A DNA stretch of 64,000 nucleotides from Alphaproteobacteria bacterium (GTDB lineage Bacteria; Pseudomonadota; Alphaproteobacteria; MPNO01; UBA830): positions 4,630,236 through 4,694,235 of the forward strand of contig OZ251539.1 of the NCBI GenBank assembly GCA_965243135.1, in the 5' to 3' direction. Every line of letters begins with the position of its first letter. The stretch's first letter is position 1. Below, piece after piece: positions 23,441 to 58,371 of this stretch. A program made the position numbers and the translations under genes. The notes under the pieces are model-generated. The model worked only from the letters and a program-made list of their open reading frames with translations. It was not told the origin of the DNA and did not search any database.

Positions 23441-24377
23441 CGCCGCGTCCTGCCTGCAACTTCGTGTAAAGCTGGAATATCGCCGCGGCCGTTTCCTCGA
23501 TCGAGCGCCTCGTCACGTCGATCACCGGCCACGCGTTCCTCAGGAACACCCTTCTAGCATCCCTGATCTCGTTCTTCACGTTGCCCATGTCGACATACGC
23601 CGTCTTGGGATCCTGGCCAAGCATCAGAAGACGATTGCGCCGAATCTGGACGAGCCGATCCACCGAGGCCGTCAACCCGACTACCAGCGCGCCCCCGGAA
23701 TCGAACAGCTCGTCCGGCAGGGGCGAACCGGGAACGAACGGTATGTTCGCCGTCTTCAGCCCGTAATGGTTGGCGAGATAGATGGAGGTCGGAGTTTTCG
23801 ACGTTCGGGATACCCCGACGAGAACGAGATCGGCCTCCGAAAGGCTGTCGGCCGCCTGACCGTCATCATGCGCCATGACGTAATGAAGCGCATCGATCCG
23901 ATCGAAATAGTCGGAGTTCAGAATGTACTGGCCGCCAGGACGGTTGACGGTTTTCCGGTTGAAGTGTCCGGCGAAGACGTCGATGACCGGATCGAGCACC
24001 GACACGCAAGGAATGTTCAAACGCTGGCATTCCTCGCGAAGCTCGCGGCTCGTCAGAGCGCTGATCAACGTGAATATGACGATTCCCGGATTTTCGCGAA
24101 TGCCCTCGATCACGGGCTCGAGCTGGCCGGTGGAAAGAATCATCGGCCAAAGGTGCTCAATCGCGGCAACGCCTTCGAACTGGGCCAAGCAGGCGCGCAC
24201 GACGCCCTGAGTCGTTTCGCCCGTGGCGTCCGAAACCAAATGTATATGGAAAACCTCGCTCAAACCGATTCGCCCACAATTCCGCCGATTCGCTCCCGCA
24301 GCGGGGATAACCCCGTTCTCCCGCCGAAGCAGCCGAAATCCCTCCCGTTCATTCAATGGATGCTCAGAGGTTATCAT
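23424..24377 (-). CDS. pyruvate phosphate dikinase / PEP synthase regulatory protein (DUF299 kinase-pyrophosphorylase)
   Basis: HIHLVSDATGET N-terminal motif and a GVSRTSKTPTS P-loop. Confidence 0.8.
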   Translation of the reverse strand: MITSEHPLNEREGFRLLRRENGVIPAAGANRRNCGRIGLSEVFHIHLVSDATGETTQGVVRACLAQFEGVAAIEHLWPMILSTGQLEPVIEGIRENPGIVIFTLISALTSRELREECQRLNIPCVSVLDPVIDVFAGHFNRKTVNRPGGQYILNSDYFDRIDALHYVMAHDDGQAADSLSEADLVLVGVSRTSKTPTSIYLANHYGLKTANIPFVPGSPLPDELFDSGGALVVGLTASVDRLVQIRRNRLLMLGQDPKTAYVDMGNVKNEIRDARRVFLRNAWPVIDVTRRSIEETAAAIFQLYTKLQAGRGDESGG

Positions 24378-24628
24378 GGATTTCCAAGCAAGGCCACATG
24401 TAGCTGAAAAAAGGCGCCATGCACGGAATTCACAATTCCGCGGCTCCCTCTAAATTCAAACCCATAAACGATTTTTCCGCGTTATGCACATGAACTTCCG
24501 CCCGTATCGCTCCTGAATTGTTTCGTGGATTATCTGTGAACGGAATTTTATCCTCATATTTCATGCATCAATCTAGATCGAACGAATCTATAAATTATAA
24601 TTATTTAAATCAAATATATTGTTATTGA
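24378..24628. promoter_or_regulatory. strongly AT-rich divergent intergenic region, probably the hemE promoter
   Basis: About 250 nt including tctataaattataattatttaaatcaaatatattgttattgaatgg, which contrasts sharply with the GC-rich flanks. It lies between divergent genes. Confidence 0.5.
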
Positions 24629-25675
24629 ATGGAATTCTGCCATACTAGGCTCATGGACGTTCGCAAACCAACGATTGCCGCCTTGCTGGGACGGCGGGTG
24701 GATCCGCCTCCTGTCTGGTTGATGAGGCAGGCCGGCCGATACCTTCCGGAATATCTTCAGGTACGAAAACAAGTTCCGGAGTTCCTCGATCTTTGTTTCG
24801 ATCCTTTCAAAGCCGCGCAAGTGACGCTACAACCGATCGAAAGATTTAATTTCGATGCAGCCATTCTTTTTTCCGATATTTTGGTCGTTCCGTACGTTCT
24901 TGGACAAAAGGTGGAGTTTGCGGAAGGCCCCTGTCTCGATCCCGTGCGCGATGCCGCTGCGCTTGCGGCTCTGTCCGTCGATCTGACTCAAGACAGGTTT
25001 TCCCCGATCTACGAGACGATCGACAGGGTCAAGGAAAAATTATCGAGCGGCGTCGCTCTGGTCGGTTTCGCGGGCGCGCCATGGACGGTGGCTACCTATA
25101 TGGTCGAAGGAGGCGGCAGCCGGGATTACGTGAACGTGAAGCGGTGGGCTCTGGGCGACCCCTCCGGATTTCAGTCCTTGGTCGATCTTCTGGTCGACGT
25201 TACGGCGGATTACCTCAAGGGGCAGATCGCCGCCGGCGCGGATGCCGTCCAGCTATTCGACACTTGGGCGGGAGTCTTGCCGAAGTCGGCGTTCGACAGA
25301 TTCTGCGCCGCTCCCGTCCTCGATATTGCGCGGCAGGTGAAATCCGGGCATCCGGATACGCCGGTGGTGGTCTTTCTTCGCGGATCGGCCGTGAATTTGC
25401 CGGAGTTGGCGTCGGCTCCCGAGATTGACGCGATCGGAATCGACCATGCGGTCGATCCCGTTTGGGCGGCGAAGGAAATCCAGCCGCGAGCGGCGGTCCA
25501 GGGAAACCTCGATCCGGTTTTGCTGCTAGCCGGAGGTCCCGAACTGGAGCGCGGGGCGCGAGAGATCGTTGATTCGTTGTCCGGAGGAGCTCATGTCTTC
25601 AATCTGGGACATGGCATTCTGCCCCAGACGCCGGTGGAGCACGTCAAATTCTTGGTCGACCTGATCCGATCATGA
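24629..25675 (+). CDS. hemE: uroporphyrinogen decarboxylase
   Basis: PPVWLMRQAGRYLPEY signature. An alternative start is the ATG at 24653. Confidence 0.9.
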   Translation: MEFCHTRLMDVRKPTIAALLGRRVDPPPVWLMRQAGRYLPEYLQVRKQVPEFLDLCFDPFKAAQVTLQPIERFNFDAAILFSDILVVPYVLGQKVEFAEGPCLDPVRDAAALAALSVDLTQDRFSPIYETIDRVKEKLSSGVALVGFAGAPWTVATYMVEGGGSRDYVNVKRWALGDPSGFQSLVDLLVDVTADYLKGQIAAGADAVQLFDTWAGVLPKSAFDRFCAAPVLDIARQVKSGHPDTPVVVFLRGSAVNLPELASAPEIDAIGIDHAVDPVWAAKEIQPRAAVQGNLDPVLLLAGGPELERGAREIVDSLSGGAHVFNLGHGILPQTPVEHVKFLVDLIRS

Positions 25676-26691
25676 CCAGAATCGCGGTGGTCGTGTTCAA
25701 CCTCGGAGGCCCGGACTCGCTCGGAGCGGTTCGTCCATTTCTTAAAAATTTGTTTTCGGATCCGATGATCTTGCGCGTGCCCGGCGTTTTGCGCAAGGCG
25801 CTGGCAGCTCTGATTTCCCGGCGCCGCGCGCCCGTGGCTCGCGCAAATTACGAAAAAATCGGCGGTCGTTCGCCCATTCTTTCGGAAACTCGTAAGCAAG
25901 CCGTCGCGCTGCAGAACGCCTTGTCGGAAGAAAAGGAAACGTATCGCGTTTTCGTTTCCATGCGTTATTGGCATCCTTTTGCGGAAGAAACGGTCGCGGA
26001 AGTCGCTCGGTGGAAACCCGACCGCGTTTTGCTGCTTCCGCTCTATCCGCAGTTTTCCACCACGACGACGGAATCTTTCCTTCGCGTATGGAAGCGGGCT
26101 GAGCAAGGAAACGACTTCGATACGCATTTTGTCTGTTGCTGGCCCGATCTCGATGGCTTCGTCCGTTCCGTCGCGAGCGGCGTCGCAAGCGCCATCGAAC
26201 GGCTTCCTGCCGGAATTCGGTTTCGAGTGTTGTTCTCCGCGCACGGATTGCCGCAGAAATTCGTCGATGGCGGAGATCCTTACGAAGCGCAGATTCGCAG
26301 AAGCGTGGACGCGGTGGCGAGGAGATTGTCCCTTTGCGGTTCGGATTACGCGATCTGCTATCAGAGCCGGGTGGGAAGGATGGAGTGGTTGCGACCCTAC
26401 GCGGAAGACGAGATTCGGCGCGCGGGGGCGGAAGGCGTTGCCCTGGTCGTCGTTCCCATAGCCTTCGTCAGCGAACATTCGGAAACGCTCGTCGAACTCG
26501 ATATGGATTATGCCGAACTGGCCGCCTCTTCCGGCGTGCCCAGTTACGAGAGGGTAAGAACCGTCGGCGACGATCCGAGCTTCATAACGGATCTGGCGGA
26601 ACTGGTTCGAAGAACCGAATCCAGCGGCCCGGGCGGAAAGGCGTGCGACCCCGCTCTGTCCGAATGCCCCTGCCGGGGAAAAGCCGGTTGA
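25672..26691 (+). CDS. hemH: ferrochelatase
   Basis: 339-aa ferrochelatase family protein with an ATGA overlap with hemE. Confidence 0.9.
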   Translation: MTRIAVVVFNLGGPDSLGAVRPFLKNLFSDPMILRVPGVLRKALAALISRRRAPVARANYEKIGGRSPILSETRKQAVALQNALSEEKETYRVFVSMRYWHPFAEETVAEVARWKPDRVLLLPLYPQFSTTTTESFLRVWKRAEQGNDFDTHFVCCWPDLDGFVRSVASGVASAIERLPAGIRFRVLFSAHGLPQKFVDGGDPYEAQIRRSVDAVARRLSLCGSDYAICYQSRVGRMEWLRPYAEDEIRRAGAEGVALVVVPIAFVSEHSETLVELDMDYAELAASSGVPSYERVRTVGDDPSFITDLAELVRRTESSGPGGKACDPALSECPCRGKAG

Positions 26692-41510: not shown

Positions 41511-41966
41511 ATGACGGGCCGTCTGGAACGCGGCCTGCGCGCGGTCTGCGCGGCGGCGCTTCTCGCGCTGTTCGCGCTCGTCGTCGCGCAGGTCGCGCTC
41601 CGATACGGTTTCGGCTACACGCCGTTCTTCACGGAAGAGGTGGCCCGCTACATGCTCGTCTGGTCGGTGCTGGCGGGCGCCGCGGCGTCGGTCGACGCCC
41701 ATATCCGGGTTCCGTTCGTGCCGGATCTTCTGAGGCCCGCCGCGCGGCGGGCCTGGATGCTGGCGCTGGACGTCGCGACGCTCCTGCTGCTGGCCGTGTT
41801 GACCTTCGCCGCGGTTCGGTCGTTCGAGTTCGCCGCCGGCCAGACCAGCGACGGGCTCCAGATCCCGCTTCAGTACCCTTACGCGGTTCTCCCGCTCGCT
41901 TTCGGGGCGGCGCTGCTTCTTCTCGCCGTCCGCCTCAAACGCGGATTCAGGAAGGAGCGGGAGTGA
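41511..41966 (+). CDS. dctQ: TRAP transporter small permease
   Basis: 151-aa four-TM DctQ-like protein. Confidence 0.8.
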   Translation: MTGRLERGLRAVCAAALLALFALVVAQVALRYGFGYTPFFTEEVARYMLVWSVLAGAAASVDAHIRVPFVPDLLRPAARRAWMLALDVATLLLLAVLTFAAVRSFEFAAGQTSDGLQIPLQYPYAVLPLAFGAALLLLAVRLKRGFRKERE

Positions 41967-44305: not shown

Positions 44306-44507
44306 TGGAGCTGCTAGAAATAAAAGTACCCCATCCATGGGAACAAACGATCTATTGCTCACCTGACCATGCTTCTTGACAGTACCATCGAGACCGTGCT
44401 ATGAACATTCAAGTAATCCATTTTGAGGAAATTCTGACTGAATTTTCGCACGACAAATTTGGATGTTATGGTATCCTGAATGGATTAGGGATGAGGATCA
44501 AGAAATC

Positions 44508-45953
44508 ATGAAGGATCAAACATATCAATTGTTGCATAATTTTTCCAACTTTGTCGCAGTTGGCGATTGTTGGGATGCTGCGCGAGAATTAATGGCTACG
44601 CATCAGATAATTGAGGTTTCTGAGACCGAAGAATTTATTTTAGGAATCAAGAAATTATCAGAAATTGCGAGAAAAGGTGATGACATTGATCGTCTCATTG
44701 CAATCGATCTAATCGTTCGCATTTCTAAATTTGTAAAAAAATTGCGCCCGAAATCGGAGGAAGCGCTTCGTCAAATTCTAACGGATAATATACCGCCTTC
44801 TTCATTGTTATCAAACACAAAAAAAATCCCAGAGGGAGCGAAGCCAGCAGAACTACGCGAGAATTTGGCAATAGCGCTGAGCTATGCATCAGGAAATTGG
44901 GTCGTTCCATATGTTGTGCGTTCCTTGTTGGAGGAAGATCGTTCACAAAGATGTCGTATGGAATTAGCTCGCCAACTAGCCACACGAGAAAAATCTATTG
45001 ACAAATGGTTGCTTTCAGTAATTAATTTTCTTATGAAAGGCGTAAACGAAAAGGAAAGAAATGTCGAAATCGCCGTGACAAGACTGCGCGATACTACAAC
45101 AGCGCTTCTTGGTGCCGCGAGAGAAAACCGGAATAATCTCGGGATATCGGGAAACTCCGGCGTTAATTTTTCTAAGATGTGTTCCCTTTTCACGCCAAAT
45201 TCGTCGTTTGCTAAACGCCCAAAATCTCTAGAGTCTTGTTCAATTGAAGTAGCGCGCTTTCTGGATGAAATATTTGCTAATAAACTCATGCTTATCGTGG
45301 AACCAGAAGCGTACTCTGTGTTGGATATAATTCAAAAATGGTGGCAACCACTTTCTTATCCACAACGATTGCGAAATGCATTAGATCCAATAAAGGATAA
45401 AATACTTACTGGTATCACATTAAGAGCCCGCTGGGGGCAGAAATCTGATAAGCTTCGATCTCGTCTCGGACAGGCATATGGCGATCAACGGTTAGCATTT
45501 AATCGTCTTGAACAAATTGCAACGGAGGAAACAGGTCTTCCTTCAGATATTGATGATTGGTTGAGGGGGCGTCGTCGAAAGACGAGCGGCGTAGAAAATG
45601 CGACTCTCGCTCTTCAATCAGTGGAAGAAGATAGTTTAATTGATGCTTTTGCACCGCTGCTTCTTGAAGCGGAAGTCGTACTGAAATCTAGACTCGATCC
45701 TTCGTTGTCTAATGAAAATCGAACCAGTCTTCGACTCGCAGAAAATGTAAGATCTTTGGCGATAAGACATGGATTAGAAGTTGTTGGAGAACGAGATGAA
45801 ATAGTGGAATATCTGCCAGTATGTCATCAGACTTCTTCGGGTGAAATACCACCGGATCCGTCTGTTAAAATCGTTCGTCCCATGGTGGTGCGCAAGCGAT
45901 ACGATGGAAGTGAAGACGTTGTTGTTAAGGCAATTGTAACCGCGGTATCATGA
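44508..45953 (+). CDS. hypothetical all-helical protein (about 481 aa), island 1 gene A
   Basis: AT-rich ORF with a GAGGA RBS before the ATG at 44508 (an alternative ATG is at 44463). It has HEAT/ARM-like helical repeats and no catalytic motif I can recognise. Confidence 0.55.
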   Translation: MKDQTYQLLHNFSNFVAVGDCWDAARELMATHQIIEVSETEEFILGIKKLSEIARKGDDIDRLIAIDLIVRISKFVKKLRPKSEEALRQILTDNIPPSSLLSNTKKIPEGAKPAELRENLAIALSYASGNWVVPYVVRSLLEEDRSQRCRMELARQLATREKSIDKWLLSVINFLMKGVNEKERNVEIAVTRLRDTTTALLGAARENRNNLGISGNSGVNFSKMCSLFTPNSSFAKRPKSLESCSIEVARFLDEIFANKLMLIVEPEAYSVLDIIQKWWQPLSYPQRLRNALDPIKDKILTGITLRARWGQKSDKLRSRLGQAYGDQRLAFNRLEQIATEETGLPSDIDDWLRGRRRKTSGVENATLALQSVEEDSLIDAFAPLLLEAEVVLKSRLDPSLSNENRTSLRLAENVRSLAIRHGLEVVGERDEIVEYLPVCHQTSSGEIPPDPSVKIVRPMVVRKRYDGSEDVVVKAIVTAVS

Positions 45954-45984: not shown

Positions 45985-46773
45985 CATGGAAAATATGATC
46001 GGGTTGGATAGGCCAGCGCTTCTTTCAAGTGTACTAGATGAACGGTCAAGAAACCCCTTAGGTTGCGGCGTGATCAGGTAGTGTCTTTTTTCGAGTCGTT
46101 GCCGTATGTGGCGATGGAGACCTGCGTCAGCGCTCATCACTGGGGTCGGCGTCTGAGAGATACGAGGTAGAACTTTTCCGGCCCAGATCCTTACCTCAAA
46201 TAGAACAAGAACGACGCACTGACAGCGAGGCGGTACAACGCCCGCAATTGCCGTCCCGAGGAGCAAGGACGTACACGGCGTGCTGTCGTTTCACAGGACG
46301 CCGAAAATGTTGGCTAAGTAGGGTGCCTAGAACTCCGACGAGTGCGCGGAGTTCGGCGTGGTCGCATTCCAGAACTGTGCCGATGTGAACCAGCCGGTTC
46401 ATCCGGGACGACAGCCTGCTGCCTGAAGAAGCTCGCTTGGCGACGTCGGTCAACCTTTTCGATCAGATCTGGAAGACCGCCGAGATGCAGGAGGCTCCGC
46501 GGAGTTGCACAGCGAGTTAGGCGACAATTCGAAAAAACTCCAGACGTCAGCGTGGCCACCGCGCTGACGGCATCGCTCGGGCTAGTGCCGCGGCAGAACG
46601 GTCCCGGTTCACCGTATCTGAAGGTGCTCATGGAAACAGTGAACTAGGTCGCCGTGGCGATTGCCAACCGAAACGTACGAATCGCTCGGGTGATGGTCCA
46701 CAGCGTCCAATCTTATAGACCAAGGATTGCCGAGTCTCCAACCATACAGGCGCAGGCCGAAGTTCACCCGTAA
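45985..46773 (+). pseudogene. degraded IS110-family transposase remnant
   Basis: IS110 N-terminal and C-terminal signatures are scattered over three frames with multiple stops (MENMIGLD, FFESLPYVAMETCVSAHHWGRRL, TASLGLVPRQNGPG, VAIANRNVRIARVM). It is too short for an intact element. Confidence 0.6.
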
Positions 46774-46855
46774 GTTGCATCCGAAAAATGCTTGCAACCC
46801 GTGGACGTCCATGCAAGTATGTGATGCATCCATTGAATCAGCAGAGGCGATAACC

Positions 46856-48436
46856 ATGCCGGATATTAATCGCGCGGCTTTTGATATTCTGGGACCAAAC
46901 GAGGACGAATTAAGAATTTGTTTGGATTTTGGTACTGCCATGTCGAAAGCATGGGCATCAAGATATTCTGATGACAGTACCATACCCCTTGTATTGGGAA
47001 GGGCGGCCGGCGAGGGTAATGAGTTGGCGGTCCCTTCGTCTATATTTATTTCTCAATCTGGAAAGATTTTCTTTGGAAGGCAAGCGGAAATTCAACATAG
47101 AAAGGAAATAGGAAATCGGCGCCGAAGATTTGATAACTTGAAATCAGTTCTTTGCGAATCAAAAGTTGATCGAGAACTTGACGAGATAGGAGTATCGCGA
47201 GAAATTGATCCAACGGGTTCTCTTACAATAGGTGGTTTGTTAACTCTATATATTGCTTGGTTAACTGATCTTTCTCTTGTAGAATTGGAACGGCAGATAC
47301 ATGCAGCAAATGAACCCAACTCTAGCGGACAAAATCCGAACAATCTTCGCTATGTTCGTAGGAGATTTGCTATCCCATGCTTTGAAAATTCTTATGACGA
47401 ATCTGTTGGTGGGGATCGACGGGCTCGATGGGCAAGAAAAATAATGAGGAAAGCATTGCTTCGGGCTCAAATTATCGCCGATACATTGAATGGGCATTGG
47501 GACGATCTAACAGTATACGATGCTTTGAGATTATTTGAAACCGTCCGGGGCATGGAAATTTCTAGGTGTGATCGATTGCTAGCAAGGGACGCCTCAGTTC
47601 GGGAGCCAGTTGCTGCAGGAGCATCGCGATTTGAAGAAATGATTACCGAAGGTAAGGCTAGGAGGATGCTGCTAGTAATCGATGCGGGCGCAGGGACCAC
47701 GGATTTTGCTATTTTTCAGGTTTTTTCTGATCAAGAAACGCGGTACGCATTAATTTCATCCGGGGTTTCTATGTGTCTAATTGCAGGAAATAGAGTCGAT
47801 CAGGTTTTAATGGAAGTCATTCTTGATGAATGTGGCGTTGATTTAGCTCAAAATAACAAGGAGGATAGAGAATCTTTCAAATGGGAACTGGAATCAAATC
47901 TCCGAAACATAAAGCAAATCCTGTTTCAGGAAAAGCGAGCAAGAATAGATTTTTTGTCAGATGTCACGGGGGAATTGCATATTGACACTCTTCTCGAAGA
48001 TCATAGATATATGAAATTAGGAGAGGAATTGTGCACAATCCGCGATAGGCTAATTGATGACCTTTTTCGAAAAAATCCTAAAGAATTGGATGATCTAAAA
48101 AAGCATATGCAAATGCTAAGTAAACCGTTTCCTATACATGTATTGCTGACGGGAGGTAGTGGTGAGCAGCCAATAATAAAAGATTTAGCCAAAGGTCATA
48201 TTGTAGTTGACGGATTAAATATTGAATTTAAGGAGGTTCGGGCTCTGCCAAATTGGATCAATGATCTACAGCGTGATCAGGCGGAATTAGTTGCTAGGGC
48301 ATATCCGCAATGTGCGGTCTCTATAGGTGGTTCGGCTCGCGAAGTTCCCCAAGAACGAAACGATTTAGTTTCCATGGTGAATCCCGCAGCGCCAGGAGAG
48401 AGACGACTTGAAGGCAATTACATGAAGGGCGTATAA
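46856..48436 (+). CDS. Hsp70-like (ASKHA superfamily) ATPase, island 1 gene B
   Basis: Phosphate-1 (ICLDFGTAMSKAW), phosphate-2 (LLVIDAGAGTTDFAIF) and adenosine (VLLTGGSGEQPIIKDL) motifs arranged as in the Hsp70 nucleotide-binding domain. It has no peptide-binding-domain-like C-terminus. Confidence 0.65.
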   Translation: MPDINRAAFDILGPNEDELRICLDFGTAMSKAWASRYSDDSTIPLVLGRAAGEGNELAVPSSIFISQSGKIFFGRQAEIQHRKEIGNRRRRFDNLKSVLCESKVDRELDEIGVSREIDPTGSLTIGGLLTLYIAWLTDLSLVELERQIHAANEPNSSGQNPNNLRYVRRRFAIPCFENSYDESVGGDRRARWARKIMRKALLRAQIIADTLNGHWDDLTVYDALRLFETVRGMEISRCDRLLARDASVREPVAAGASRFEEMITEGKARRMLLVIDAGAGTTDFAIFQVFSDQETRYALISSGVSMCLIAGNRVDQVLMEVILDECGVDLAQNNKEDRESFKWELESNLRNIKQILFQEKRARIDFLSDVTGELHIDTLLEDHRYMKLGEELCTIRDRLIDDLFRKNPKELDDLKKHMQMLSKPFPIHVLLTGGSGEQPIIKDLAKGHIVVDGLNIEFKEVRALPNWINDLQRDQAELVARAYPQCAVSIGGSAREVPQERNDLVSMVNPAAPGERRLEGNYMKGV

Positions 48437-51476: not shown

Positions 51477-51814
51477 GGCCTTCCGCTCCGCATCTTCGAT
51501 ACAGGCATTTTTCACTTTCCCCCGGAAGCCGTCCGAAAGCAACAGCGGGAAGAGGGAACCTTGCAGGGCCGCCCGGGCCGGCTTTCCGTCCCGCGCGACG
51601 TTCGGGCGCGGTTGGAACGGCCGGTAGTATTTTGCGACGATGGTGGCGGCCGAGCGGGAAAAAGCCGTATTGTGAACAAGGCCGTAACACTCGGAACCGT
51701 GAGGGATCGAACCGCAGTTTGGCGGTTATCTGCGGGCGATAGGGCAGTATTGTTGCCGTGCGGGTCGTCGGCACCGTCCTGCCGGGACCGAATGAGCACG
51801 CGGAGGAGAAACGG

Positions 51815-53053
51815 ATGATCGAACTGGCTCGTCGCATTCGACTGGGCGAGGATTCGATGCTCAAGTTGAAGAGCGTTCGCTCGATGGCGGGCCGCGATAC
51901 CGGTCCGCAACGTAGTGAATTCGCGGACGAGCTGGCCGCCATGGCCAACGGCCGGGGCGGCACTCTGGTCCTCGGCGTGGACGACGACACTCGTCGGATC
52001 GAAGGCATTCCGCTTGCCGAGCTTGACGCGGTCGAAGGCTGGGTCCGCGAAATTTGCGACGACTTCGTGAAACCCGCGCTCGATGTCGACATTTTGAAAC
52101 AGGAACTGAAAGACGGCAGCGGAGAACTCGTCCCGATTATTGTCGTGGAGACCCCTCGGAGCCTGTTCGTGCACGAGAGTCCCGGCGGATACTTCCGCAG
52201 GATCGGCGGCTCGAAGCGCAAGATGGAGCCGGAGGCTCTCGCCCGTCTGTTTCAGGAGCGGAGCCAGACCCGGCAGATCCGCTTCGACGAATTGATCGTG
52301 CCCGGCACCGGTCCGTCCGACTTGCAGTATTCGCTGACGCACCGGTTCATGCGATCAAACGAAGGACTTCCCGCCAATTCCCGCTTCTCCGGCGAAGTTC
52401 TCGATACATTGCGGAAGCTTTGCATCGTGGCCGACGAGGATGGACAAGCGCGGCTTACGCTCTCGGGCGCGCTTCTTTGCACAGCGGAACCGCAGCGGTG
52501 GCTGCGCCACGCGTACATTCAGGCCGTCAACTACGCAGGCGACCGGATCGACACCAAGTACCAAACCGACGCAAGGGATATCGGCGGACCTCTGGACGAG
52601 CAGGTGGCCGGAACACTGGACTTCGTGCGGCGCAACATGCTGGTGCGCGCCGCCAAGACAAACGCGCGGATGGACCGCCCGCAGTTCAGCGAGCGCGCCG
52701 TGTTCGAGGCGCTTGTGAACGCGGTCGCGCATCGCGACTACTCGCTGGCGGGCGCTCGGATTCGCCTCCACATGTTCGGCGACCGGCTTGAGCTCTACGT
52801 TCCCGGCGGGTTGGCCAGCACGCTTGCCCCGGACAGCCTCCATCTGCGGCAGTCGAACCGGAACAACGTTATCGTGTCCCTGCTTGCCCGATGCGCCGCG
52901 CCATCCGGGATCGGGCGCATGCGTCTGATGGACGTACGCGGCGACGGAGTGCCGATCATTCGCGCAGAGTGCGAAAAATTGTCGGGGAGATTGCCGGAGT
53001 ACAGACTGATCGACGAAAACGAGCTGCGACTCGTAATTCCGGCCGCTGGATAG
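51815..53053 (+). CDS. Schlafen-like AlbA_2 plus HATPase_c_4 domain protein (putative ATP-binding transcriptional regulator)
   Basis: N-terminal AlbA_2 pattern (ELAAMANGRGGTLVLGVDDDTRRIEG) and C-terminal HATPase_c_4 pattern (EALVNAVAHRDYSLAGARIRLHMFGDRLELYVPGGL). It is the first gene of island 2. Confidence 0.7.
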   Translation: MIELARRIRLGEDSMLKLKSVRSMAGRDTGPQRSEFADELAAMANGRGGTLVLGVDDDTRRIEGIPLAELDAVEGWVREICDDFVKPALDVDILKQELKDGSGELVPIIVVETPRSLFVHESPGGYFRRIGGSKRKMEPEALARLFQERSQTRQIRFDELIVPGTGPSDLQYSLTHRFMRSNEGLPANSRFSGEVLDTLRKLCIVADEDGQARLTLSGALLCTAEPQRWLRHAYIQAVNYAGDRIDTKYQTDARDIGGPLDEQVAGTLDFVRRNMLVRAAKTNARMDRPQFSERAVFEALVNAVAHRDYSLAGARIRLHMFGDRLELYVPGGLASTLAPDSLHLRQSNRNNVIVSLLARCAAPSGIGRMRLMDVRGDGVPIIRAECEKLSGRLPEYRLIDENELRLVIPAAG

Positions 53054-53070
53054 TCCGTTCACCGGCGGCC

Positions 53071-53424
53071 GTCTGGAAGCAAATCGTCTGCCTCGCGAAC
53101 TCCCGAAAGCGGTCGGGTCGTTACGTTGCGGGCCGCGAATGGTCGGAGACGGACGGCGCGGGGGCATGGGTCCGACCCGTCAGCAAGCGGGACGGCCAGG
53201 AAGTATCGGAACACGAGCAGCGGTACGAGGACGGTGCCGACCCGCGGTTGCTCGACATTATCGGCTTGCCTCTTCTGAAAGCCTGCCCTGAAGATTGGCA
53301 GACCGAAAACTGGTTGCTCGATCCGGAACGGTACTGGCAGAAGAACGGAAAATACTCGCGCTTCGATCTGGCGAAGCTCGCCGACGCGCTTGAACCGCTC
53401 TGGATCGACGGGTACGGCACCTAA
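53071..53424 (+). CDS. small hypothetical protein with no canonical start codon (possible N-terminal half of a frameshifted gene)
   Basis: Conserved-looking N-terminus (KQIVCLANSRKRSGRYVAGREWS...GAWVRPVS) begins right after the upstream stop. There is no ATG, GTG or TTG before the conserved segment. Confidence 0.3.
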   Translation, partial: VWKQIVCLANSRKRSGRYVAGREWSETDGAGAWVRPVSKRDGQEVSEHEQRYEDGADPRLLDIIGLPLLKACPEDWQTENWLLDPERYWQKNGKYSRFDLAKLADALEPLWIDGYGT

Positions 53425-53752
53425 TAACGGCCAAAACGACAAGGTTCCGCTCGGGCTGATCTCGTCGATTTCCGATTCGCTGCGGCTGATCAGGGTCGAG
53501 CGGCTTGAACTGGCCGTGTTCAGCTCGGGCGAGGCGTTCGGCAACGCCAAGCGGCGCGTGCAGGGGCGCTTCGAATTTTCGGGCCAGGAGTACGCGTTAT
53601 GGGTGACGGATCCTGCCTGCGAAAAGAAGTACTTTGCTAAGCTGGACGGCACCTATGCGACAGGCGGGAGCTATCTGACGATCAGCCTTGGAGAGGGGTA
53701 TAAGGGCGCTTGCTACAAGCTCGTTGCCGCCGTCATCGGGGTGGATGAATAA
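53390..53752 (+). CDS. small hypothetical protein overlapping the previous ORF in another frame (possible C-terminal half of the same gene)
   Basis: It overlaps the previous ORF by 35 nt in a different frame (a one-nucleotide shift). The ...YALWVTDPACEKKYFAKLDG...GACYKLVAAVIGVDE segment has no internal start codon near its beginning. Confidence 0.3.
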   Translation: MNRSGSTGTAPNNGQNDKVPLGLISSISDSLRLIRVERLELAVFSSGEAFGNAKRRVQGRFEFSGQEYALWVTDPACEKKYFAKLDGTYATGGSYLTISLGEGYKGACYKLVAAVIGVDE

Positions 53753-53756
53753 AGAT

Positions 53757-54374
53757 ATGGAAAACAGCGTTCTTACTATCGGCCACTCCAATCATTCTTG
53801 GGAAGCCTTCGCGGCTCTCCTCGAACTGCACGGCATCGGGGCCGTGGCGGATGTGCGCTCGGCACCGTACAGCCGCTTCAACCCGCAGTTTGATCGCGAA
53901 ACCTTCGCGGCCGCTCTCAAGGGGCGAGGCATAGCTTACGTCTATCTCGGGAGCGAACTCGGCGGCCGCTCCGAAGATCCTGGATGTTACGAGGGCGGCC
54001 GCATCCGTTATGACCGCATCGCGCTGACGGATCGTTTCCGGGACGGTATCGAACGCGTGGTTCGAGGGGCCGGAAAACACCGCATCGCTCTCATGTGCGC
54101 AGAGAAAGAGCCTCTCGATTGCCACCGAACCCTTCTCGTCGCGCCCGCTCTTGAACGGGAGGGTATAGACGTCATGCATGTTCACGCGGACGGCGTTCTT
54201 GAACCGAATGCCGAAGCGATGGACGGGTTGCTGGATAAATTCGACCTCCGCCCGGACGGCGATCTGTTCCAGCGGTCCCGCGAGGAGTTGGTCGCGGAAG
54301 CGATAGCGCTGCAAGCCAGGCGCGTCGCCCATGCTGACGACAGACCTGCGGGAGGGCGGGAGCGAAGCCGATGA
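53757..54374 (+). CDS. DUF488 family protein (paralog 1)
   Basis: LTIGHSNHS...AVADVRSAPYSRFNPQF...GIAYVYLGSELGG matches the DUF488 signature. Confidence 0.75.
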   Translation: MENSVLTIGHSNHSWEAFAALLELHGIGAVADVRSAPYSRFNPQFDRETFAAALKGRGIAYVYLGSELGGRSEDPGCYEGGRIRYDRIALTDRFRDGIERVVRGAGKHRIALMCAEKEPLDCHRTLLVAPALEREGIDVMHVHADGVLEPNAEAMDGLLDKFDLRPDGDLFQRSREELVAEAIALQARRVAHADDRPAGGRERSR

Positions 54375-54859
54375 GAGTGCTGACCATAGGATTCACGAAG
54401 AAGCCGGCGCAGCGGTTTTTCGGGCTGCTGCGCGAGTCCGGCGCCAGAAGAGTTGTCGACGTGAGGCTCAACACCGGATCGCAACTCGCCGGGTTCGCGA
54501 AAAAGCGGGATCTCGCGTGGTTCCTCGAAGAAATTTGCGGGATCGAATACGTCCATGCGCCGGATCTGGCGCCTTCGAAGGAACTGCAGGACGACTACCG
54601 GAAGAAGAGGATCGACTGGAGCGCTTACGAAGACCGGTTTGTGGATCTGATGCGCGAACGGCGGATCGAGGATACGGTTTCGAAGGAGATGGTGGACAGC
54701 GGCTGCCTGCTGTGCAGCGAGGATCAGCCCCATCATTGTCACCGGCGGCTGGTTGCCGAATATCTGACGACTTGTTGGGGCAATATCGAGGTCGAGCATT
54801 TGGGAATGTCGGGACCCGACGCGCGGTGGCCGCAGCCCGGGAAACCTCTTTCGGAGTAG
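54371..54859 (+). CDS. DUF488 family protein (paralog 2, divergent)
   Basis: LTIGFTKKPAQRFFGLLRESGARRVVDVRLNTGSQLAGF...GIEYVHAPDLAPS shows the same architecture. It has an ATGA overlap with paralog 1. Confidence 0.7.
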   Translation: MRVLTIGFTKKPAQRFFGLLRESGARRVVDVRLNTGSQLAGFAKKRDLAWFLEEICGIEYVHAPDLAPSKELQDDYRKKRIDWSAYEDRFVDLMRERRIEDTVSKEMVDSGCLLCSEDQPHHCHRRLVAEYLTTCWGNIEVEHLGMSGPDARWPQPGKPLSE

Positions 54860-55151: not shown

Positions 55152-56318
55152 ATGGATTCGTCCACTCGTCCGCTTTTTGCACTGTATGTGATTTGGCACC
55201 CTACATTTGCGTTTGGTCGAGAGATCGCGGATCGGCTCCGGTCGCATTTTGTCCGCAATCTCTACAAGACCGTTGGCGGAGATAATGGGGTGAGCGTTCT
55301 TGAGCGCAGCGAACCTTTGCCGGGTAAGCGCACGCCTTTGCCGATCGACTGGGACGAAGCGGAGATGACGGCAGCCGTTGTGATCGCGGAGTCCGGGCTC
55401 GTCGATGATCGCGATTGGACCGACTACATCCGCAGCGTCTCCCGAAGCGCGAGGACGAGAGGGGATTCCGCCGGTTTCTTTCCCGTCACGGTGGATTCCC
55501 GCGGAACCGAGTTCGGGTTCGAGGAACAGGCGCTGCGCTGGGACCGCTGGGGCGAACCCGACGCTGAGCGATGTCGACGCATGACCATCGACCTGACCCA
55601 CGAGTTTTGCCGTATGCTGCGACACCAGCTCGGGCGACCAGACAGCGGGCAGATGCCGCTCGAACAGCGTCTGGAGAAGATCCAGATTTTCATCAGCCAC
55701 ACCAAGCATGACGACGATGGCGAAATCGTGGCTCGCGGCATCCGCGACTGGATCCATGAACGCAGTCCGCTTTCGAGCTTCTTTGATGTCCACGATATTC
55801 CGCCTGGGCAGTCGGTCGAGGAGGTCTTGCTGCATCAGCTTGGCAAAGGAGCGGTCATGGTGGTGCACTCCGATTCCTATTCGTCGCGCGAATGGTGTCG
55901 TCGCGAGGTAATTGAGGCAAAGCGTCGCTTGGTGCCGATGGTCGTTGTCGATTGCGTGCGCGATATCGATTTCCGCGGAATGCCGTATCTCGGCAACGTA
56001 CCGATCATCCGCATGGATCCGGACCGGAGAGATCGGATAGAGACCGTTGCAGGTTGCCTCCTCGACGAAGTCTTCCGCACTTGGTTGTGGCTTTATCGCA
56101 TTGAGCGTTATCGGGCAGAGGCTTCCGGCGTATTGTTTACGGCTCGACCGCCCGAATTGATTGTCTTGGCGGCGATGTCTTTTCGTCGCGGAGAAGTCGA
56201 CCCAGTGATCGTCTATCCTGATCCCCTGTTGAGCGCCGAGGAAGGACATTTGTTCTCGAAGGTTGCTCCAAACGTGCGCGTTCAAACTTTGACGGAATGG
56301 CTGGAGGAACGACAATGA
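55152..56318 (+). CDS. TIR-domain protein (388 aa) with an additional N-terminal domain
   Basis: Central TIR signature IFISHTKHDDDGEIVARGIRDWIHE...VMVVHSDSYSSREWCRREVIEA. The N-terminal 170 aa (LFALYVIWHP...) may be a second degenerate TIR-like domain. About 90 aa extend C-terminally. Confidence 0.7.
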   Translation: MDSSTRPLFALYVIWHPTFAFGREIADRLRSHFVRNLYKTVGGDNGVSVLERSEPLPGKRTPLPIDWDEAEMTAAVVIAESGLVDDRDWTDYIRSVSRSARTRGDSAGFFPVTVDSRGTEFGFEEQALRWDRWGEPDAERCRRMTIDLTHEFCRMLRHQLGRPDSGQMPLEQRLEKIQIFISHTKHDDDGEIVARGIRDWIHERSPLSSFFDVHDIPPGQSVEEVLLHQLGKGAVMVVHSDSYSSREWCRREVIEAKRRLVPMVVVDCVRDIDFRGMPYLGNVPIIRMDPDRRDRIETVAGCLLDEVFRTWLWLYRIERYRAEASGVLFTARPPELIVLAAMSFRRGEVDPVIVYPDPLLSAEEGHLFSKVAPNVRVQTLTEWLEERQ

Positions 56319-57148
56319 CTCCAAGCAATGCACCATCCGCCATCGGAATTTCGATTTCAGAGAGTCCCGACATGCAGGCGCTCGGGTTAAGCGATGGCCA
56401 CTTGCGCGACGCCATGGCCGAGGTCGCGCTGCACTTGCTTGCCTCGGGAAGGAGCCTAGCCTATGGCGGAGATTTACGGCGCCATGGATTCACCGAGCTT
56501 TTGTTCGAGCTGGTCGGACGCTATCGAAACCATCCGCGACATCGCGGCACGATATCCGTAACCGATTATCTGGCTTGGCCCGTTCATATTAAAATGACCT
56601 CGAACGAGCTCGCTGCGTTCGCCGCCGAACACGATGCGGCTGTTTCTCTCGTTTTCCTTGCGCGAGACGGCGTGCGCCTCGAACGGGAACAGCGAATGAG
56701 GCTTTCTGAACGCGAACCGGATGACGACGAGTGGACGGAAGGACTAACGTCCATGCGGACCGCCATGCGCCGAGAAATTCAGGCTCGAGTAGTGTTGGGC
56801 GGCAGGGTCGAGGGCTACAAGGGAACCATGCCGGGGATCGCCGAAGAGGCCTATCTTTCTCTCGAAGCCAGTCAGCCGATCTTCCTGCTTGGCGGTTTCG
56901 GCGGGTGCGCCCGCGACATTGCCGAGACAATCGGGCTTGTCGACCGTTGGGCCGGCTCTAGGGGCGATTGGGACGGTCGCGGTCGCTTTCGTTCGTATTC
57001 CCCGAACGAACTCCGCAACGGCTTGTCCCGGGAGGAGAACGTCGTTCTCGCACGGACGCCGCACATCCAGGAGGCGGTCGCCTTGGTATTGCGAGGCCTC
57101 CGCCGGATCCTCAGCTGGAGAGATAGCGATGCACAAGGTATTCATTAG
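56315..57148 (+). CDS. standalone SLOG (LOG/ThsA-STALD-like Rossmann) domain protein
   Basis: LAYGGDLRRHGFTELL and PIFLLGGFGGCARDIAE match the SLOG/LOG GGxG...PGGxGTxxE pattern. It has ATGA coupling to the TIR gene and no SIR2, Macro or TM module. Confidence 0.6.
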   Translation: MTPSNAPSAIGISISESPDMQALGLSDGHLRDAMAEVALHLLASGRSLAYGGDLRRHGFTELLFELVGRYRNHPRHRGTISVTDYLAWPVHIKMTSNELAAFAAEHDAAVSLVFLARDGVRLEREQRMRLSEREPDDDEWTEGLTSMRTAMRREIQARVVLGGRVEGYKGTMPGIAEEAYLSLEASQPIFLLGGFGGCARDIAETIGLVDRWAGSRGDWDGRGRFRSYSPNELRNGLSREENVVLARTPHIQEAVALVLRGLRRILSWRDSDAQGIH

Positions 57149-57728
57149 TTATCACCATGAGAGGGATCAGGGGTACAAGGATTCCTTGATCGAGTTTGGC
57201 GTGAAGAATTCCGTATTCGTGGACAGGTCTGTCGATCCTGGCGACATTTCGGAGGAATTGAGCGACGAGCGGATCCGTCACATAATCAGAGACAAGTATC
57301 TTAGGGATTCCACGGTTACCATTGTGTTGGTTGGAAAAGAGACGAAACACCGGAAACACGTCGACTGGGAGATTCACACCAGCATGTACGACGGGACCGC
57401 GAGCAGAAGATCGGGAATAGTGGTCATCAACCTGCCGGGAACCTCCGATTACTTTGGCGCTCCTTATGGAGAGGCCGAGAAAAAACTCTTGTATCCAGAC
57501 GTTACGAACTGGATGAGTATAGATTCACGAGCGGAGTACGAACGCAGATATCCCTACATGCCTGATCGCATCGTGGACAATCTCGTGAAATCCGACGTAA
57601 AAATTTCGGTCGTTCCTTGGGGCAGGCTAAATGCGGAAAGACTCGAATTTCTGATAGAAGCGGCCTTTAGCAATCGTTTTGAGTGCGGATACGATCTGAG
57701 CAGACGAATGAGGCGGGCAAACTCGTAA
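57129..57728 (+). CDS. ThsB-like TIR protein (DUF1863-type)
   Basis: MHKVFISYHHERD...VTIVLVGKETKHRKHVDWEI closely parallels the Thoeris ThsB/DUF1863 TIR layout. Its GC content is markedly lower than the backbone. Confidence 0.75.
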   Translation: MHKVFISYHHERDQGYKDSLIEFGVKNSVFVDRSVDPGDISEELSDERIRHIIRDKYLRDSTVTIVLVGKETKHRKHVDWEIHTSMYDGTASRRSGIVVINLPGTSDYFGAPYGEAEKKLLYPDVTNWMSIDSRAEYERRYPYMPDRIVDNLVKSDVKISVVPWGRLNAERLEFLIEAAFSNRFECGYDLSRRMRRANS

Positions 57729-57897: not shown

Positions 57898-58371
57898 CTA
57901 CTCCGCGTCCGTGAACGACTGCAGGAAATTCTGCATCCCGACCTGATCGATCAGCGCGATCTGCGTTTCGAGCCAGTCGATGTGCTCCTCTTCGCTTTCC
58001 ATGATTTCGACGAACAGCTCGCGAGATACGTAATCGTTGACGCGCTCGCAATCGGCGACCGCGGCGATCAGATCCTTGCGCGACTCCATTTCGAGCAGCA
58101 GGTCGCATTCCAGCGCTTCCTTGACGTTCTCGCCGATCCTTAGACGGCCCAGATCCTGAAGGTTGGGAAGGCCCTCCAGATAGAGGATCCGGTTTATCAG
58201 CCGGTCCGCATGCTTCATCTCGTCGACCGATTCCCGGTATTCCATCTCGTCGAGCTTCCCGAAGCCCCAGTTCTTGAACATCCGGGCATGCAGGAAATAC
58301 TGGTTGATCGCCGTCAGCTCGTTCTTGAGCACCAGGTTCAGGTGCCGGATGACGTCCTTGTCGCCTTTCAT
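57898..58371 (-). CDS. bfr: bacterioferritin
   Basis: 157-aa Bfr with ferroxidase-centre residues ([23 protein letters not shown]). Confidence 0.9.

What the first reader, a model, noticed from the sequence alone, without database searches (positions are those of the whole stretch)
55152..57728. Thoeris-related TIR - standalone SLOG - TIR(ThsB-like) core with no recognisable effector module
Three translationally coupled genes with visibly lower GC than the backbone encode a 388-aa TIR protein carrying an extra N-terminal domain, a 283-aa SLOG-only protein and a DUF1863/ThsB-like TIR protein. In described Thoeris systems the SLOG sensor is fused to a SIR2 NADase, or a Macro/TM module replaces it. 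Here the SLOG protein stands alone, so either the large TIR protein is the effector or the SLOG domain itself processes the signal nucleotide as a LOG-type phosphoribohydrolase would. The DUF488 pair and the Schlafen-like regulator upstream suggest a larger composite system.
Basis: partly seen in the sequence, partly recalled or inferred. Interest (0 to 1): 0.9.

Follow-up and report, generated by a model that had tools for sequence, protein, structure and literature searches.

The report
Split TIR–SLOG Thoeris-like defence cassette
Three overlapping genes (a large TIR protein, a stand-alone SLOG nucleotide-binding protein and a ThsB-type TIR protein) form a conserved, horizontally spread, probably anti-phage signalling cassette that resembles the poorly understood type III Thoeris system but uses different protein families, and in which the large TIR protein is most likely the cell-killing NAD-degrading effector.

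Summary
Three co-directional, overlapping genes at 55152-57728 encode a 388-aa TIR protein (TIR1), a 277/283-aa SLOG-only protein (Pfam PF18163) and a 199-aa ThsB-type TIR (TIR2). Their GC (0.57) is below the flanks (0.67).

Stand-alone SLOG plus several TIR proteins is the described architecture of type III Thoeris (ThcA/ThcB1-4). The window proteins fail the ThcA/ThcB4 equivalog models, and the SLOG has no PADLOC v2 hit. It is therefore a new variant, not a member.

Of 61 related genome loci, 26 keep all three genes intact, across at least 7 phyla, many apparently sponge-associated. About 10 sit inside type I R-M operons. One copy lies alone between IS elements on a Klebsiella plasmid.

In 25 of the 150 best family representatives, SLOG sits at the C-terminus of a 650-735-aa protein. 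All six examined are TIR-SLOG fusions, and the two compared residue by residue contain full-length TIR1. Other relatives fuse SLOG to patatin.

Best model: TIR2 senses infection and makes a cADPR-type signal, SLOG binds it, and the partner TIR1 (SARM1-like, invariant catalytic Glu) depletes NAD+.

The DUF488/Schlafen genes upstream are a separate candidate system (PDC-M45).

The parts
55152..56318 (+). TIR1: 388-aa three-module protein (N-terminal alpha/beta domain of unknown family, central TIR domain, C-terminal alpha/beta domain); proposed NADase effector
55152..55646 (+). N-terminal domain of TIR1 (aa 1-165), conserved (W15, G22, A26, S48, V49, R52 invariant); function unknown
   Evidence: Alignment A1. 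No Pfam hit. No hhalign similarity to the TIR module. Beta-alpha-beta order in the AF2 model. The public annotation starts 46 codons later (P0121), but the conservation supports the long form.
55683..56021 (+). TIR domain of TIR1 (aa 178-290) with FISH(S/T) strand and W248-x3-E252 catalytic motif (E252 codon 55905-55907)
   Evidence: Pfam. F180, S182, H183, W248, C249 and E252 invariant in 50 sequences. Codons checked.
56022..56315 (+). C-terminal domain of TIR1 (aa 291-388); function unknown; immediately precedes SLOG in the fused relatives
56315..57148 (+). Stand-alone SLOG cluster-2 protein (277 aa; alternative ATG at 56297 gives 283 aa); proposed receptor of the TIR-made nucleotide signal. 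Conserved pocket residues: S13, Y50-G-G-D53, R148, G162-G163, G170, P173-G174, E177-E178, G193-G-F-G-G197.
56315..56318 (+). ATGA start/stop overlap of TIR1 and SLOG (translational coupling), GGAGGA 8 nt upstream
   Evidence: Sequence read directly.
57129..57728 (+). TIR2: 199-aa ThsB-family TIR protein (TIR domain aa 1-110 plus C-terminal region); proposed infection sensor and signal synthase. Catalytic Glu E81 (codon 57369-57371).
   Evidence: Pfam ThsB_TIR E 4.5e-21. PADLOC ThsB models. 45-50% identity to type VI Thoeris ThsB TIR domains. D79, W80 and E81 invariant in 23 sequences.
57129..57148 (+). 20-nt overlap of the SLOG 3' end with the TIR2 start, GGAGAG upstream

Best explanation
This is a self-contained, horizontally mobile, Thoeris-like anti-phage signalling cassette whose effector is split over two polypeptides.

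TIR2 (ThsB family) is the infection sensor and signal synthase. On phage infection it converts NAD+ into an ADP-ribose-derived messenger. A cyclic ADPR isomer is most likely. 2'cADPR is a lead only, because the closest TIR domains listed in the literature table belong to type VI Thoeris systems, and 2'cADPR is the type VI signal.

The SLOG cluster-2 protein binds this messenger in its glycine-rich Arg/Glu pocket.

SLOG works as one unit with TIR1, whose SARM1-like TIR domain with an invariant WxxxE glutamate is then switched on, probably through oligomerisation. TIR1 degrades NAD+, arresting or killing the infected cell. TIR1+SLOG would thus be the functional analogue of ThsA (SIR2-SLOG), TIR-SAVED and TIR-STING: a ligand-binding domain gating an NADase.

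Shown: the domain identities, the folds, the conserved catalytic and pocket residues, the gene order and overlaps, the TIR1-SLOG fusions, the defence-island and R-M contexts, and the absence of any other conserved gene.

Inferred: the defence function itself, which TIR makes the signal and which one executes, the identity of the signal, NAD+ depletion, and physical TIR1-SLOG interaction in the split form.
For: 1. Domains and folds.

2. Rosetta-stone fusions. Full-length TIR1 (28% identity, E 1e-46 to 1e-48, covering N-domain, TIR and C-domain) is joined to SLOG cluster 2 in single 686-689-aa proteins on Gloeothece PCC 7424 and Priestia megaterium plasmids, each with further separate TIR genes nearby. 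In 25 of the 150 best family representatives SLOG is C-terminal in a 650-735-aa protein, and the four of these scanned carry a TIR domain at about aa 180-290.

3. SLOG cluster 2 is also fused to a patatin phospholipase (P0260; also the K. variicola plasmid protein). It therefore behaves as a sensor module attached to interchangeable effectors.

4. TIR1 E252 is invariant in 50 sequences. TIR2 E81 is invariant in 23.

5. SLOG residues S13, R148, G170/G174 and E178 are invariant or nearly so across a 34%-identity alignment. They recall the S290/R371/G399/E403 3'cADPR contacts of BcThsA (bioRxiv 10.1101/2022.05.07.491051). R148-E178 are spaced by 30 residues, R371-E403 by 32.

6. The trio is conserved. 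26 of 61 related genome loci have all three genes intact, and 20 of 22 scored under a stricter filter are colinear with gaps under 80 nt. No fourth conserved gene exists. On K. pneumoniae plasmid pKpnB199 the trio lies alone between IS elements.

7. Defence context. The cassette is inserted between hsdM-hsdS and hsdR in about 10 loci. In the window it lies next to PADLOC candidates PDC-M45 and PDC-M61.

8. The ThsB-type partner varies (28-72% identity, different position or strand) while the TIR1-SLOG pair is constant, as ThsB varies around ThsA in Thoeris.

9. TIR2 is 45-50% identical to type VI Thoeris ThsB TIR domains (signal reported).

10. No phage-borne homologues were found.
Against: No experiment exists for this family. 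The only paper in the library that uses the term 'TIR-SLOG' is a computational survey.

The N- and C-terminal domains of TIR1 are unassigned and could be sensors, making TIR1 a second signal generator.

In type III Thoeris, the closest validated system, the SLOG protein is currently called the effector, and no abortive-infection phenotype was reported.

Many copies in MAGs are truncated or frameshifted. The SLOG model is only moderately confident (pLDDT 74, C-terminal 40 residues below 50).

Several SLOG-containing candidates tested by Yirmiya et al. (SLOG-patatin, SLOG-4TM) were not verified as defensive in E. coli.
Confidence: 0.5

Rival explanations
1. Both TIR proteins are sensors/signal synthases (as assumed for ThcB1-4 of type III Thoeris), and the SLOG protein is itself the effector or a signal-processing enzyme. 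It would be a LOG-like N-glycosidase/phosphoribohydrolase that either depletes a nucleotide pool or converts the TIR product into the active molecule.
Against: In relatives the same SLOG family is fused to recognised effectors (TIR, patatin), the pattern of a sensor rather than an effector. Foldseek's best matches are ligand-binding SLOGs (TRPM MHR1/2, ThsA). It does not explain why full-length TIR1, and not the ThsB-type TIR, is the fusion partner.
Confidence: 0.2
2. TIR1-SLOG is a regulated signal generator or amplifier rather than the executioner. The true effector is TIR2, or is encoded elsewhere (in trans, or in variable neighbouring genes).
For: The N- and C-domains of TIR1 are unassigned. 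Type IX Thoeris shows that TIR-only operons exist in which signal and effector roles are unclear. SLOG-only remnants occur next to other defence genes, for example a 600-aa ORF in L041 that looks AIPR-like by eye only and was not scanned.
Against: No other gene is conserved with the trio in 61 loci. The plasmid copy is bounded by IS elements. TIR2 belongs to the ThsB family, whose characterised members are signal synthases.
Confidence: 0.12
3. The cassette is not an anti-phage system. It would be a host-interaction or NAD-metabolism module of animal-associated bacteria, for example TIR proteins manipulating sponge innate immunity.
For: Most close homologues come from MAGs of taxa whose names point to sponge or coral holobionts (Entotheonella, Poriferihabitaceae, 'Porisulfidus', Binatia, Latescibacterota and others). 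Bacterial TIR proteins that interfere with eukaryotic TLR signalling are known (own knowledge).
Against: By eye the sequences show no obvious signal peptide or secretion-associated genes, though no predictor was run. The cassette is embedded in type I R-M operons and defence islands. It is also present on Klebsiella, Rhizobium and Pseudomonas plasmids and in free-living Pseudomonas and Pollutimonas. The ThsB/SLOG logic is that of intracellular nucleotide signalling.
Confidence: 0.06
4. The trio is only the core of a larger composite system that also needs the upstream Schlafen-like regulator, the DuOB gene and the two DUF488 genes.
For: All lie on the same strand in one low-GC block, 51.7-57.7 kb. 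Schlafen-like homologues lie within a few kb of the trio or of a lone SLOG gene in L017, L023, L041 and L056.
Against: DuOB plus DUF488 x2 is PADLOC candidate PDC-M45 in its own right (E 1e-41 to 1e-77). The DuOB gene is frameshifted in the window. A 292-bp gap separates the two blocks. Most of the 61 loci lack these genes. In L041 the four-gene block is on the opposite strand of a different operon.
Confidence: 0.03

Closest known systems
Type III Thoeris (ThcA + ThcB1-4; van den Berg et al., Cell Host Microbe 2024, as cited; NCBIfam NF058525/NF058526)
   Same: Both have several TIR-domain proteins plus a small stand-alone SLOG protein and no other recognisable effector. In both, a roughly 380-aa TIR protein with extra N- and C-terminal regions (ThcB4 / TIR1) is encoded immediately upstream of the SLOG gene, and ThsB-type TIRs accompany them. 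ThcB4 and ThcA each hit 29 plasmid records with the same genus distribution. Both are plasmid- and island-borne.
   Different: The SLOG belongs to another family (PF18163 cluster 2, 277 aa, versus PF18180 cluster 3, 184 aa). The window SLOG gives no ThcA hit. TIR1 scores 36.5 bits against a ThcB4 cut-off of 220, and only the TIR domain aligns (24% identity). There are two TIR genes instead of four. TIR-SLOG fusions were found for cluster 2, while none of the 29 plasmid hits listed for ThcA was an evident fusion (names only, plasmids only). The mechanism of type III is itself unknown.
Type I Thoeris (ThsA SIR2-SLOG + ThsB)
   Different: There is no SIR2 domain. The proposed NADase is a TIR domain on a separate polypeptide (fused in some relatives). 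The SLOG family is PF18163, not STALD/PF18185.
Type VI Thoeris (ThsB + DUF6650 effector ThsG; signal 2'cADPR; bioRxiv 10.64898/2025.12.03.692087)
   Same: TIR2 is 45-50% identical over about 100 residues to type VI ThsB TIR domains of cluster 2741407742.
   Different: None of the proteins scanned between 51.7 and 57.7 kb is DUF6650. The partners here are SLOG and TIR1. The paper does not say which of the listed type VI TIRs were the 2'cADPR producers.
Ligand-gated TIR NADase effectors: TIR-SAVED (CBASS/type III CRISPR), TIR-STING, Cat1 (CARF-TIR), SARM1
   Different: The sensor is a SLOG domain, here on a separate protein. The upstream signal would come from another TIR rather than from a cyclase. 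TIR1 carries two additional unassigned domains.
Computationally predicted TIR-SLOG conflict systems (Burroughs et al., NAR 2015; source of Pfam 'SLOG cluster 2'; mentioned in PMC9503650)
   Same: The protein family is the same (PF18163). The association of SLOG with TIR domains was already noted as a predicted nucleotide-signalling conflict system (the content of the 2015 paper is recalled from memory because it could not be read).
   Different: That work is prediction only. No role assignment for a split TIR1/SLOG/ThsB trio and no experimental test was found in the searchable library.

Membership tests
Thoeris type III | ThcA equivalog (NCBIfam NF058525, cut-off 110 bits; Pfam PF18180 SLOG cluster 3) | tested here: not met
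   The window SLOG has no NCBIfam hit at E<=0.1. Its Klebsiella homologue scores 19.1 bits. Pfam assigns PF18163, not PF18180. A genuine ThcA from the K. variicola plasmid scores 248.6 bits and is PF18180.
Thoeris type III | ThcB4 equivalog (NF058526, cut-off 220 bits) | tested here: not met
   TIR1 scores 36.5 bits, TIR domain only. BLASTP against a real ThcB4 gives 24% identity over 89 residues.
Thoeris type III | Architecture: several TIR proteins plus a stand-alone SLOG protein, with the large TIR gene directly upstream of the SLOG gene | tested here: met
   Window compared with L063.
Thoeris type III | Experimentally shown anti-phage protection | not testable with these tools
   Needs plaque assays.
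Thoeris type I | ThsB-type TIR protein (PF08937) | tested here: met
   TIR2 scores 75.5 bits against a cut-off of 21.2.
Thoeris type I | ThsA with SIR2 domain fused to a SLOG (STALD) domain | tested here: not met
   No SIR2 in any of the eight proteins scanned between 51.7 and 57.7 kb. SLOG homologues end at about 275-290 aa.
Thoeris type II | Macro-domain effector with transmembrane helices | tested here: not met
   No Macro hit in the scanned genes. TM helices were not predicted explicitly.
Thoeris type VI | DUF6650 (PF20355) effector next to the TIR gene | tested here: not met
   No DUF6650 among the scanned neighbours. Only the TIR2 domain resembles type VI ThsB.
Thoeris type IX (TIR effector) | Homology to ThsJ / type IX TIR proteins | tested here: inconclusive
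   Only the TIR-domain sequences from Table S1 were available. TIR1 shows no significant match (E>3). TIR2 is 29% identical to one of them.
Pfam PF18163 SLOG cluster 2 | Score above the gathering threshold (25.3 bits) | tested here: met
   244.8 bits, profile positions 5-211 of 264.
SLOG superfamily | Rossmannoid SLOG fold with glycine-rich loops and a PGxxxE-type motif | tested here: met
Catalytic TIR NADases / signal synthases | Conserved catalytic glutamate (WxxxE in the alpha-C region) | tested here: met
   TIR1 W248-x3-E252 invariant in 50 sequences. TIR2 E81 invariant in 23 sequences and aligned by eye with the E of the BcThsB 'RWVRYEI' motif.
Catalytic TIR NADases / signal synthases | NAD+ cleavage or cyclisation activity | not testable with these tools
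   Needs an enzymatic assay.
Any system defined in PADLOC-DB v2.0.0 | All component genes match the models of one system | tested here: not met
   SLOG has 0 hits. TIR1 has only weak TIR-domain hits (E>=8e-5). TIR2 hits generic ThsB and PDC-M50B models. DefenseFinder and newer PADLOC releases could not be run.

The most novel reading that the evidence does not exclude
The stand-alone SLOG protein is not a passive receptor but an enzyme. The two TIR proteins and the SLOG would form a multi-step nucleotide pathway. For example, TIR2 makes a cADPR-type precursor, and SLOG (LOG-like N-glycosidase chemistry), together with TIR1, converts it or cellular nucleotides into the toxic or active product. 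That would be an effector principle not yet described for Thoeris. It would also explain the unresolved type III system, whose ThcB4-ThcA gene pair has the same layout.
Probability: 0.15. Interest if true: 0.8.

Novelty: new variant of a known kind. Interest (0 to 1): 0.55.

Why it matters
Thoeris-type TIR signalling links bacterial, plant and animal immunity. Type III Thoeris, the only validated system with a stand-alone SLOG protein, has no known signal or killing mechanism.

This cassette is a second, independent family with the same 'large TIR + SLOG-only + ThsB' layout. Unlike type III, it has natural TIR-SLOG fusion proteins. These make a concrete, testable prediction: a SLOG-gated TIR NADase, that is, a ThsA analogue in which TIR replaces SIR2.

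The SLOG family is common (2261 clusters at 50% identity match its profile). The SLOG protein has no model in PADLOC v2 or NCBIfam. Close copies occur at 49-76% protein identity across at least 7 phyla of apparently sponge-associated bacteria. The cassette may therefore also be a marker of intense horizontal exchange of defence genes inside animal holobionts.

Tractable versions exist on Klebsiella, Rhizobium and Pseudomonas plasmids.

Tried and rejected
1. Hidden SIR2/Macro continuation of the SLOG ORF: rejected. The ORF ends in TAG inside the TIR2 start, and all listed homologues are about 275-290 aa.

2. Membership of Thoeris I, II, III or VI: tested with Pfam, NCBIfam and PADLOC and not met.

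3. Composite system with DUF488/Schlafen: rejected.

5. Sequence search of the PDB with the SLOG profile (A2, A3) and with a fusion protein: no ThsA hit, only a 24-residue motif match to MoCo carrier protein. The mapping onto ThsA ligand contacts is therefore by motif and spacing, not by alignment.

6. Phage-borne copies: none in IMG/VR (two scans) or INPHARED.

7. Island boundaries: no flanking direct repeats. No convincing promoter or terminator was predicted.

8. Source genome: the exact TIR1/283-aa SLOG look-ups failed. The 277-aa SLOG was found only on a 2.9-kb metagenome contig.

9. Literature: Burroughs et al. 2015 and van den Berg et al. 2024 are not held. What is said about them comes from citing papers or from memory. 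Table S1 of Yirmiya et al. is truncated in the library, so a 'SLOG-only' category there cannot be fully excluded.
Full report
**Observation**

- TIR1 is 55152-56318 (388 aa).
- The SLOG protein is 56297-57148 (283 aa). The better start is ATG 56315 (277 aa). It overlaps the TIR1 stop as ATGA, follows a GGAGGA Shine-Dalgarno, and is the product called on a public metagenome contig.
- TIR2 starts at ATG 57129, after GGAGAG, 20 nt before the SLOG stop, and ends at 57728 (199 aa).

Pfam gives TIR_2 for TIR1 residues 179-268 (E 2.5e-10), LD_cluster2 'SLOG cluster 2' for the middle protein (E 1.5e-72, 244.8 bits) and ThsB_TIR for TIR2 (E 4.5e-21).

GC of the core is 0.569 (GC3 0.60-0.66) against 0.665-0.678 (GC3 0.78-0.89) in the flanking genes.

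There is no SIR2, Macro or TM module. The SLOG ORF ends inside the TIR2 start. The next downstream ORF is a convergent 157-aa reading frame at 57898-58371, which looks bacterioferritin-like by eye but was not scanned.

**The three proteins**

*TIR1.* The family has 1147 database hits, and the best 120 are mostly 340-410 aa. In a 50-sequence alignment the F180/S182/H183 strand motif and W248, C249 and E252 (a WxxxE catalytic motif) are invariant. The first 46 residues, which the public annotation omits (P0121, 342 aa), are also conserved, so the 388-aa form is right.

Across a diverse alignment (34% mean identity) S13, R148, G162-G163, G170, P173-G174, E178 and G196-G197 are invariant. This pattern recalls the S290/R371/G399/E403 contacts of BcThsA with 3'cADPR. 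That mapping is by motif and spacing only, because no sequence alignment to ThsA could be obtained.

*TIR2.* TIR2 has an invariant D79-W80-E81. It is 45-50% identical over about 100 residues to the ThsB TIR domains listed under type VI Thoeris in Table S1 of Yirmiya et al.. The reported type VI signal is 2'cADPR.

**Conservation and context**

A scan of one genome per species found 61 related loci.
- All three genes are intact in 26.
- Most of the rest hold two genes or visibly decayed copies.
- Among 22 loci scored under a stricter filter, 20 are colinear TIR1-SLOG-TIR2 with gaps under 80 nt.
- No fourth gene is conserved.

In about 10 loci the cassette sits between hsdM-hsdS and hsdR of a type I restriction-modification operon. 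On K. pneumoniae plasmid pKpnB199 the trio, with TIR2 divergent, lies alone between IS elements. Further copies are on Rhizobium and Pseudomonas plasmids. No copy was found in IMG/VR or in GenBank phages.

In the window the cassette lies in a block of candidate defence genes. Upstream are a Schlafen/AlbA_2-HATPase_c_4 protein and PADLOC candidate PDC-M45 (DuOB, here frameshifted, plus two DUF488 proteins). A 4-kb island at GC 0.45-0.49 carries PDC-M61. These neighbours are absent from most related loci. They are separate systems, not part of a composite.

The hosts of the close homologues span Pseudomonadota, Acidobacteriota, Chloroflexota, Actinomycetota, Latescibacterota, Tectimicrobiota, Binatia and Rhodothermales. 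Many of the names point to sponge holobionts (Entotheonella, Poriferihabitaceae, 'Porisulfidus'). SLOG identities are 49-76% across these phyla, which implies horizontal transfer. The sponge association is inferred from names only.

**The key evidence for mechanism**

On plasmids of Gloeothece citriformis PCC 7424 and Priestia megaterium, a single 686-689-aa protein consists of full-length TIR1 (N-domain, TIR and C-domain; 28% identity, E 1e-46 to 1e-48) followed by SLOG cluster 2. Separate TIR genes lie nearby.

An exhaustive profile search found 2261 family representatives. Of the best 150, 25 are 650-735 aa with SLOG at the C-terminus. The four of these scanned with Pfam carry a TIR domain at about aa 180-290. 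One of them, P0257, ranks third overall. Others fuse SLOG to a patatin phospholipase or to TPR repeats. A SLOG(cluster 2-like)-patatin protein also sits beside ThsB-type TIRs on a K. variicola plasmid.

SLOG cluster 2 thus behaves as a sensor module attached to interchangeable effectors. TIR1 is its effector partner here, split off as a separate, translationally coupled polypeptide. The ThsB-type gene, by contrast, varies in sequence (28-72%), position and strand, as ThsB genes do around ThsA.

**Most likely mechanism (confidence about 0.5)**

TIR2 senses infection and makes an ADPR-derived messenger. SLOG binds it. TIR1, in complex with SLOG, becomes an active NADase and depletes NAD+.

Shown: domains, folds, conserved residues, operon structure, fusions, contexts.

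Inferred: the defence function, the assignment of roles, the ligand, NAD+ depletion and the TIR1-SLOG complex.

The main rival (0.2) is that SLOG is itself catalytic (LOG-like chemistry) and both TIRs are signal generators. Lesser rivals are an effector elsewhere (0.12), a host-interaction role (0.06) and a composite with the upstream genes (0.03).

**Comparison with known systems**

Type III Thoeris combines several TIR proteins with a SLOG-containing protein whose signalling is uncharacterised.

Using the published TIR-domain sequence I located type III loci on plasmids. There, ThcA (NCBIfam NF058525) is a 189-aa SLOG-only protein of Pfam cluster 3. It is encoded 2 nt after ThcB4, a 380-aa TIR protein with extra N- and C-terminal regions. 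ThcA and ThcB4 each hit 29 plasmid records with the same genus distribution. The layout is therefore the same as here.

Membership fails, however. The window SLOG has no ThcA hit. TIR1 scores 36.5 bits against a cut-off of 220, and only the TIR domains align. PADLOC v2 has no model for the SLOG protein. Types I, II and VI are excluded by the missing SIR2, Macro and DUF6650 partners.

TIR-SLOG systems were predicted computationally by Aravind's group (mentioned; the 2015 paper could not be read). I found no experimental work.

**Verdict**

This is a real, conserved, probably defensive cassette. It is a new variant of a known kind: Thoeris-like, closest in design to type III.

It still has a useful twist. 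The natural TIR1-SLOG fusions point to a SLOG-gated TIR NADase. They may also suggest how type III works. Interest 0.55.

Noticed in passing
window 44463-45953 and 46727-48436 (+): Two large ORFs (496 and 569 aa) in a very low-GC island (0.45-0.49 against a 0.66-0.70 backbone). They have no Pfam hits but match PADLOC candidate system PDC-M61 (A: E 1.6e-24; B: E 5e-81). This is another candidate defence system 7 kb upstream of the trio.
   Followed up: partly
window 51758-54859 (+): A Schlafen/AlbA_2 + HATPase_c_4 protein (431 aa), DuOB and two DUF488 proteins together make up PADLOC candidate PDC-M45 plus a regulator-like gene. The same four-gene block occurs at 60-73% identity in locus L041.
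   Followed up: partly
window 53071-53752: The DuOB gene (PDC-M45A) is split into two reading frames (Pfam DuOB positions 1-107 and 111-210 lie on different ORFs, overlapping around 53390-53424). In L041 the two HSPs share a frame by coordinate arithmetic, so that homologue appears to be one continuous ORF. The window copy is a frameshift pseudogene or a sequencing error.
   Followed up: partly
window 41746-41842: ARAGORN calls a tRNA-Arg(CCT) of 97 nt, unusually long for a bacterial tRNA-Arg. It lies just upstream of the low-GC islands and could be an integration site or a false or intron-containing call.
   Followed up: no
loci L019, L021, L024, L026, L031, L035, L036, L041, L043, L054: The cassette (or its SLOG remnant) is inserted between hsdM-hsdS and hsdR of a type I restriction-modification operon, a recurrent insertion hotspot.
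   Followed up: partly
61 genome loci L001-L061: Only 26 of 61 loci have all three genes intact. Many show truncations, internal stops or lone SLOG genes, which suggests frequent decay of the cassette in these MAGs.
   Followed up: partly
L001-L061 record titles: Close homologues come overwhelmingly from MAGs of taxa typical of marine sponge (and coral) holobionts, across at least 7 phyla, at 49-76% SLOG identity. This suggests holobiont-wide horizontal spread. The ecology is inferred from names only.
   Followed up: partly
L063 (K. variicola plasmid pKLVA-1) 3672-9159: A type III Thoeris ThcB4-ThcA pair sits directly beside two small TIR genes and a SLOG(cluster 2-like)-patatin protein that NCBI annotates as 'CBASS cGAMP-activated phospholipase'. 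This may be two TIR/SLOG systems in tandem or one larger one.
   Followed up: partly
window 55152-55289: The public annotation of TIR1 (P0121, 342 aa) starts 46 codons downstream of the ATG at 55152. The conserved N-terminus (W15, G22, A26 invariant) shows that the longer ORF is the real one.
   Followed up: yes
window 24001-26000: A further GC dip (0.555) lies in an otherwise 0.63-0.70 backbone. It was not examined.
   Followed up: no
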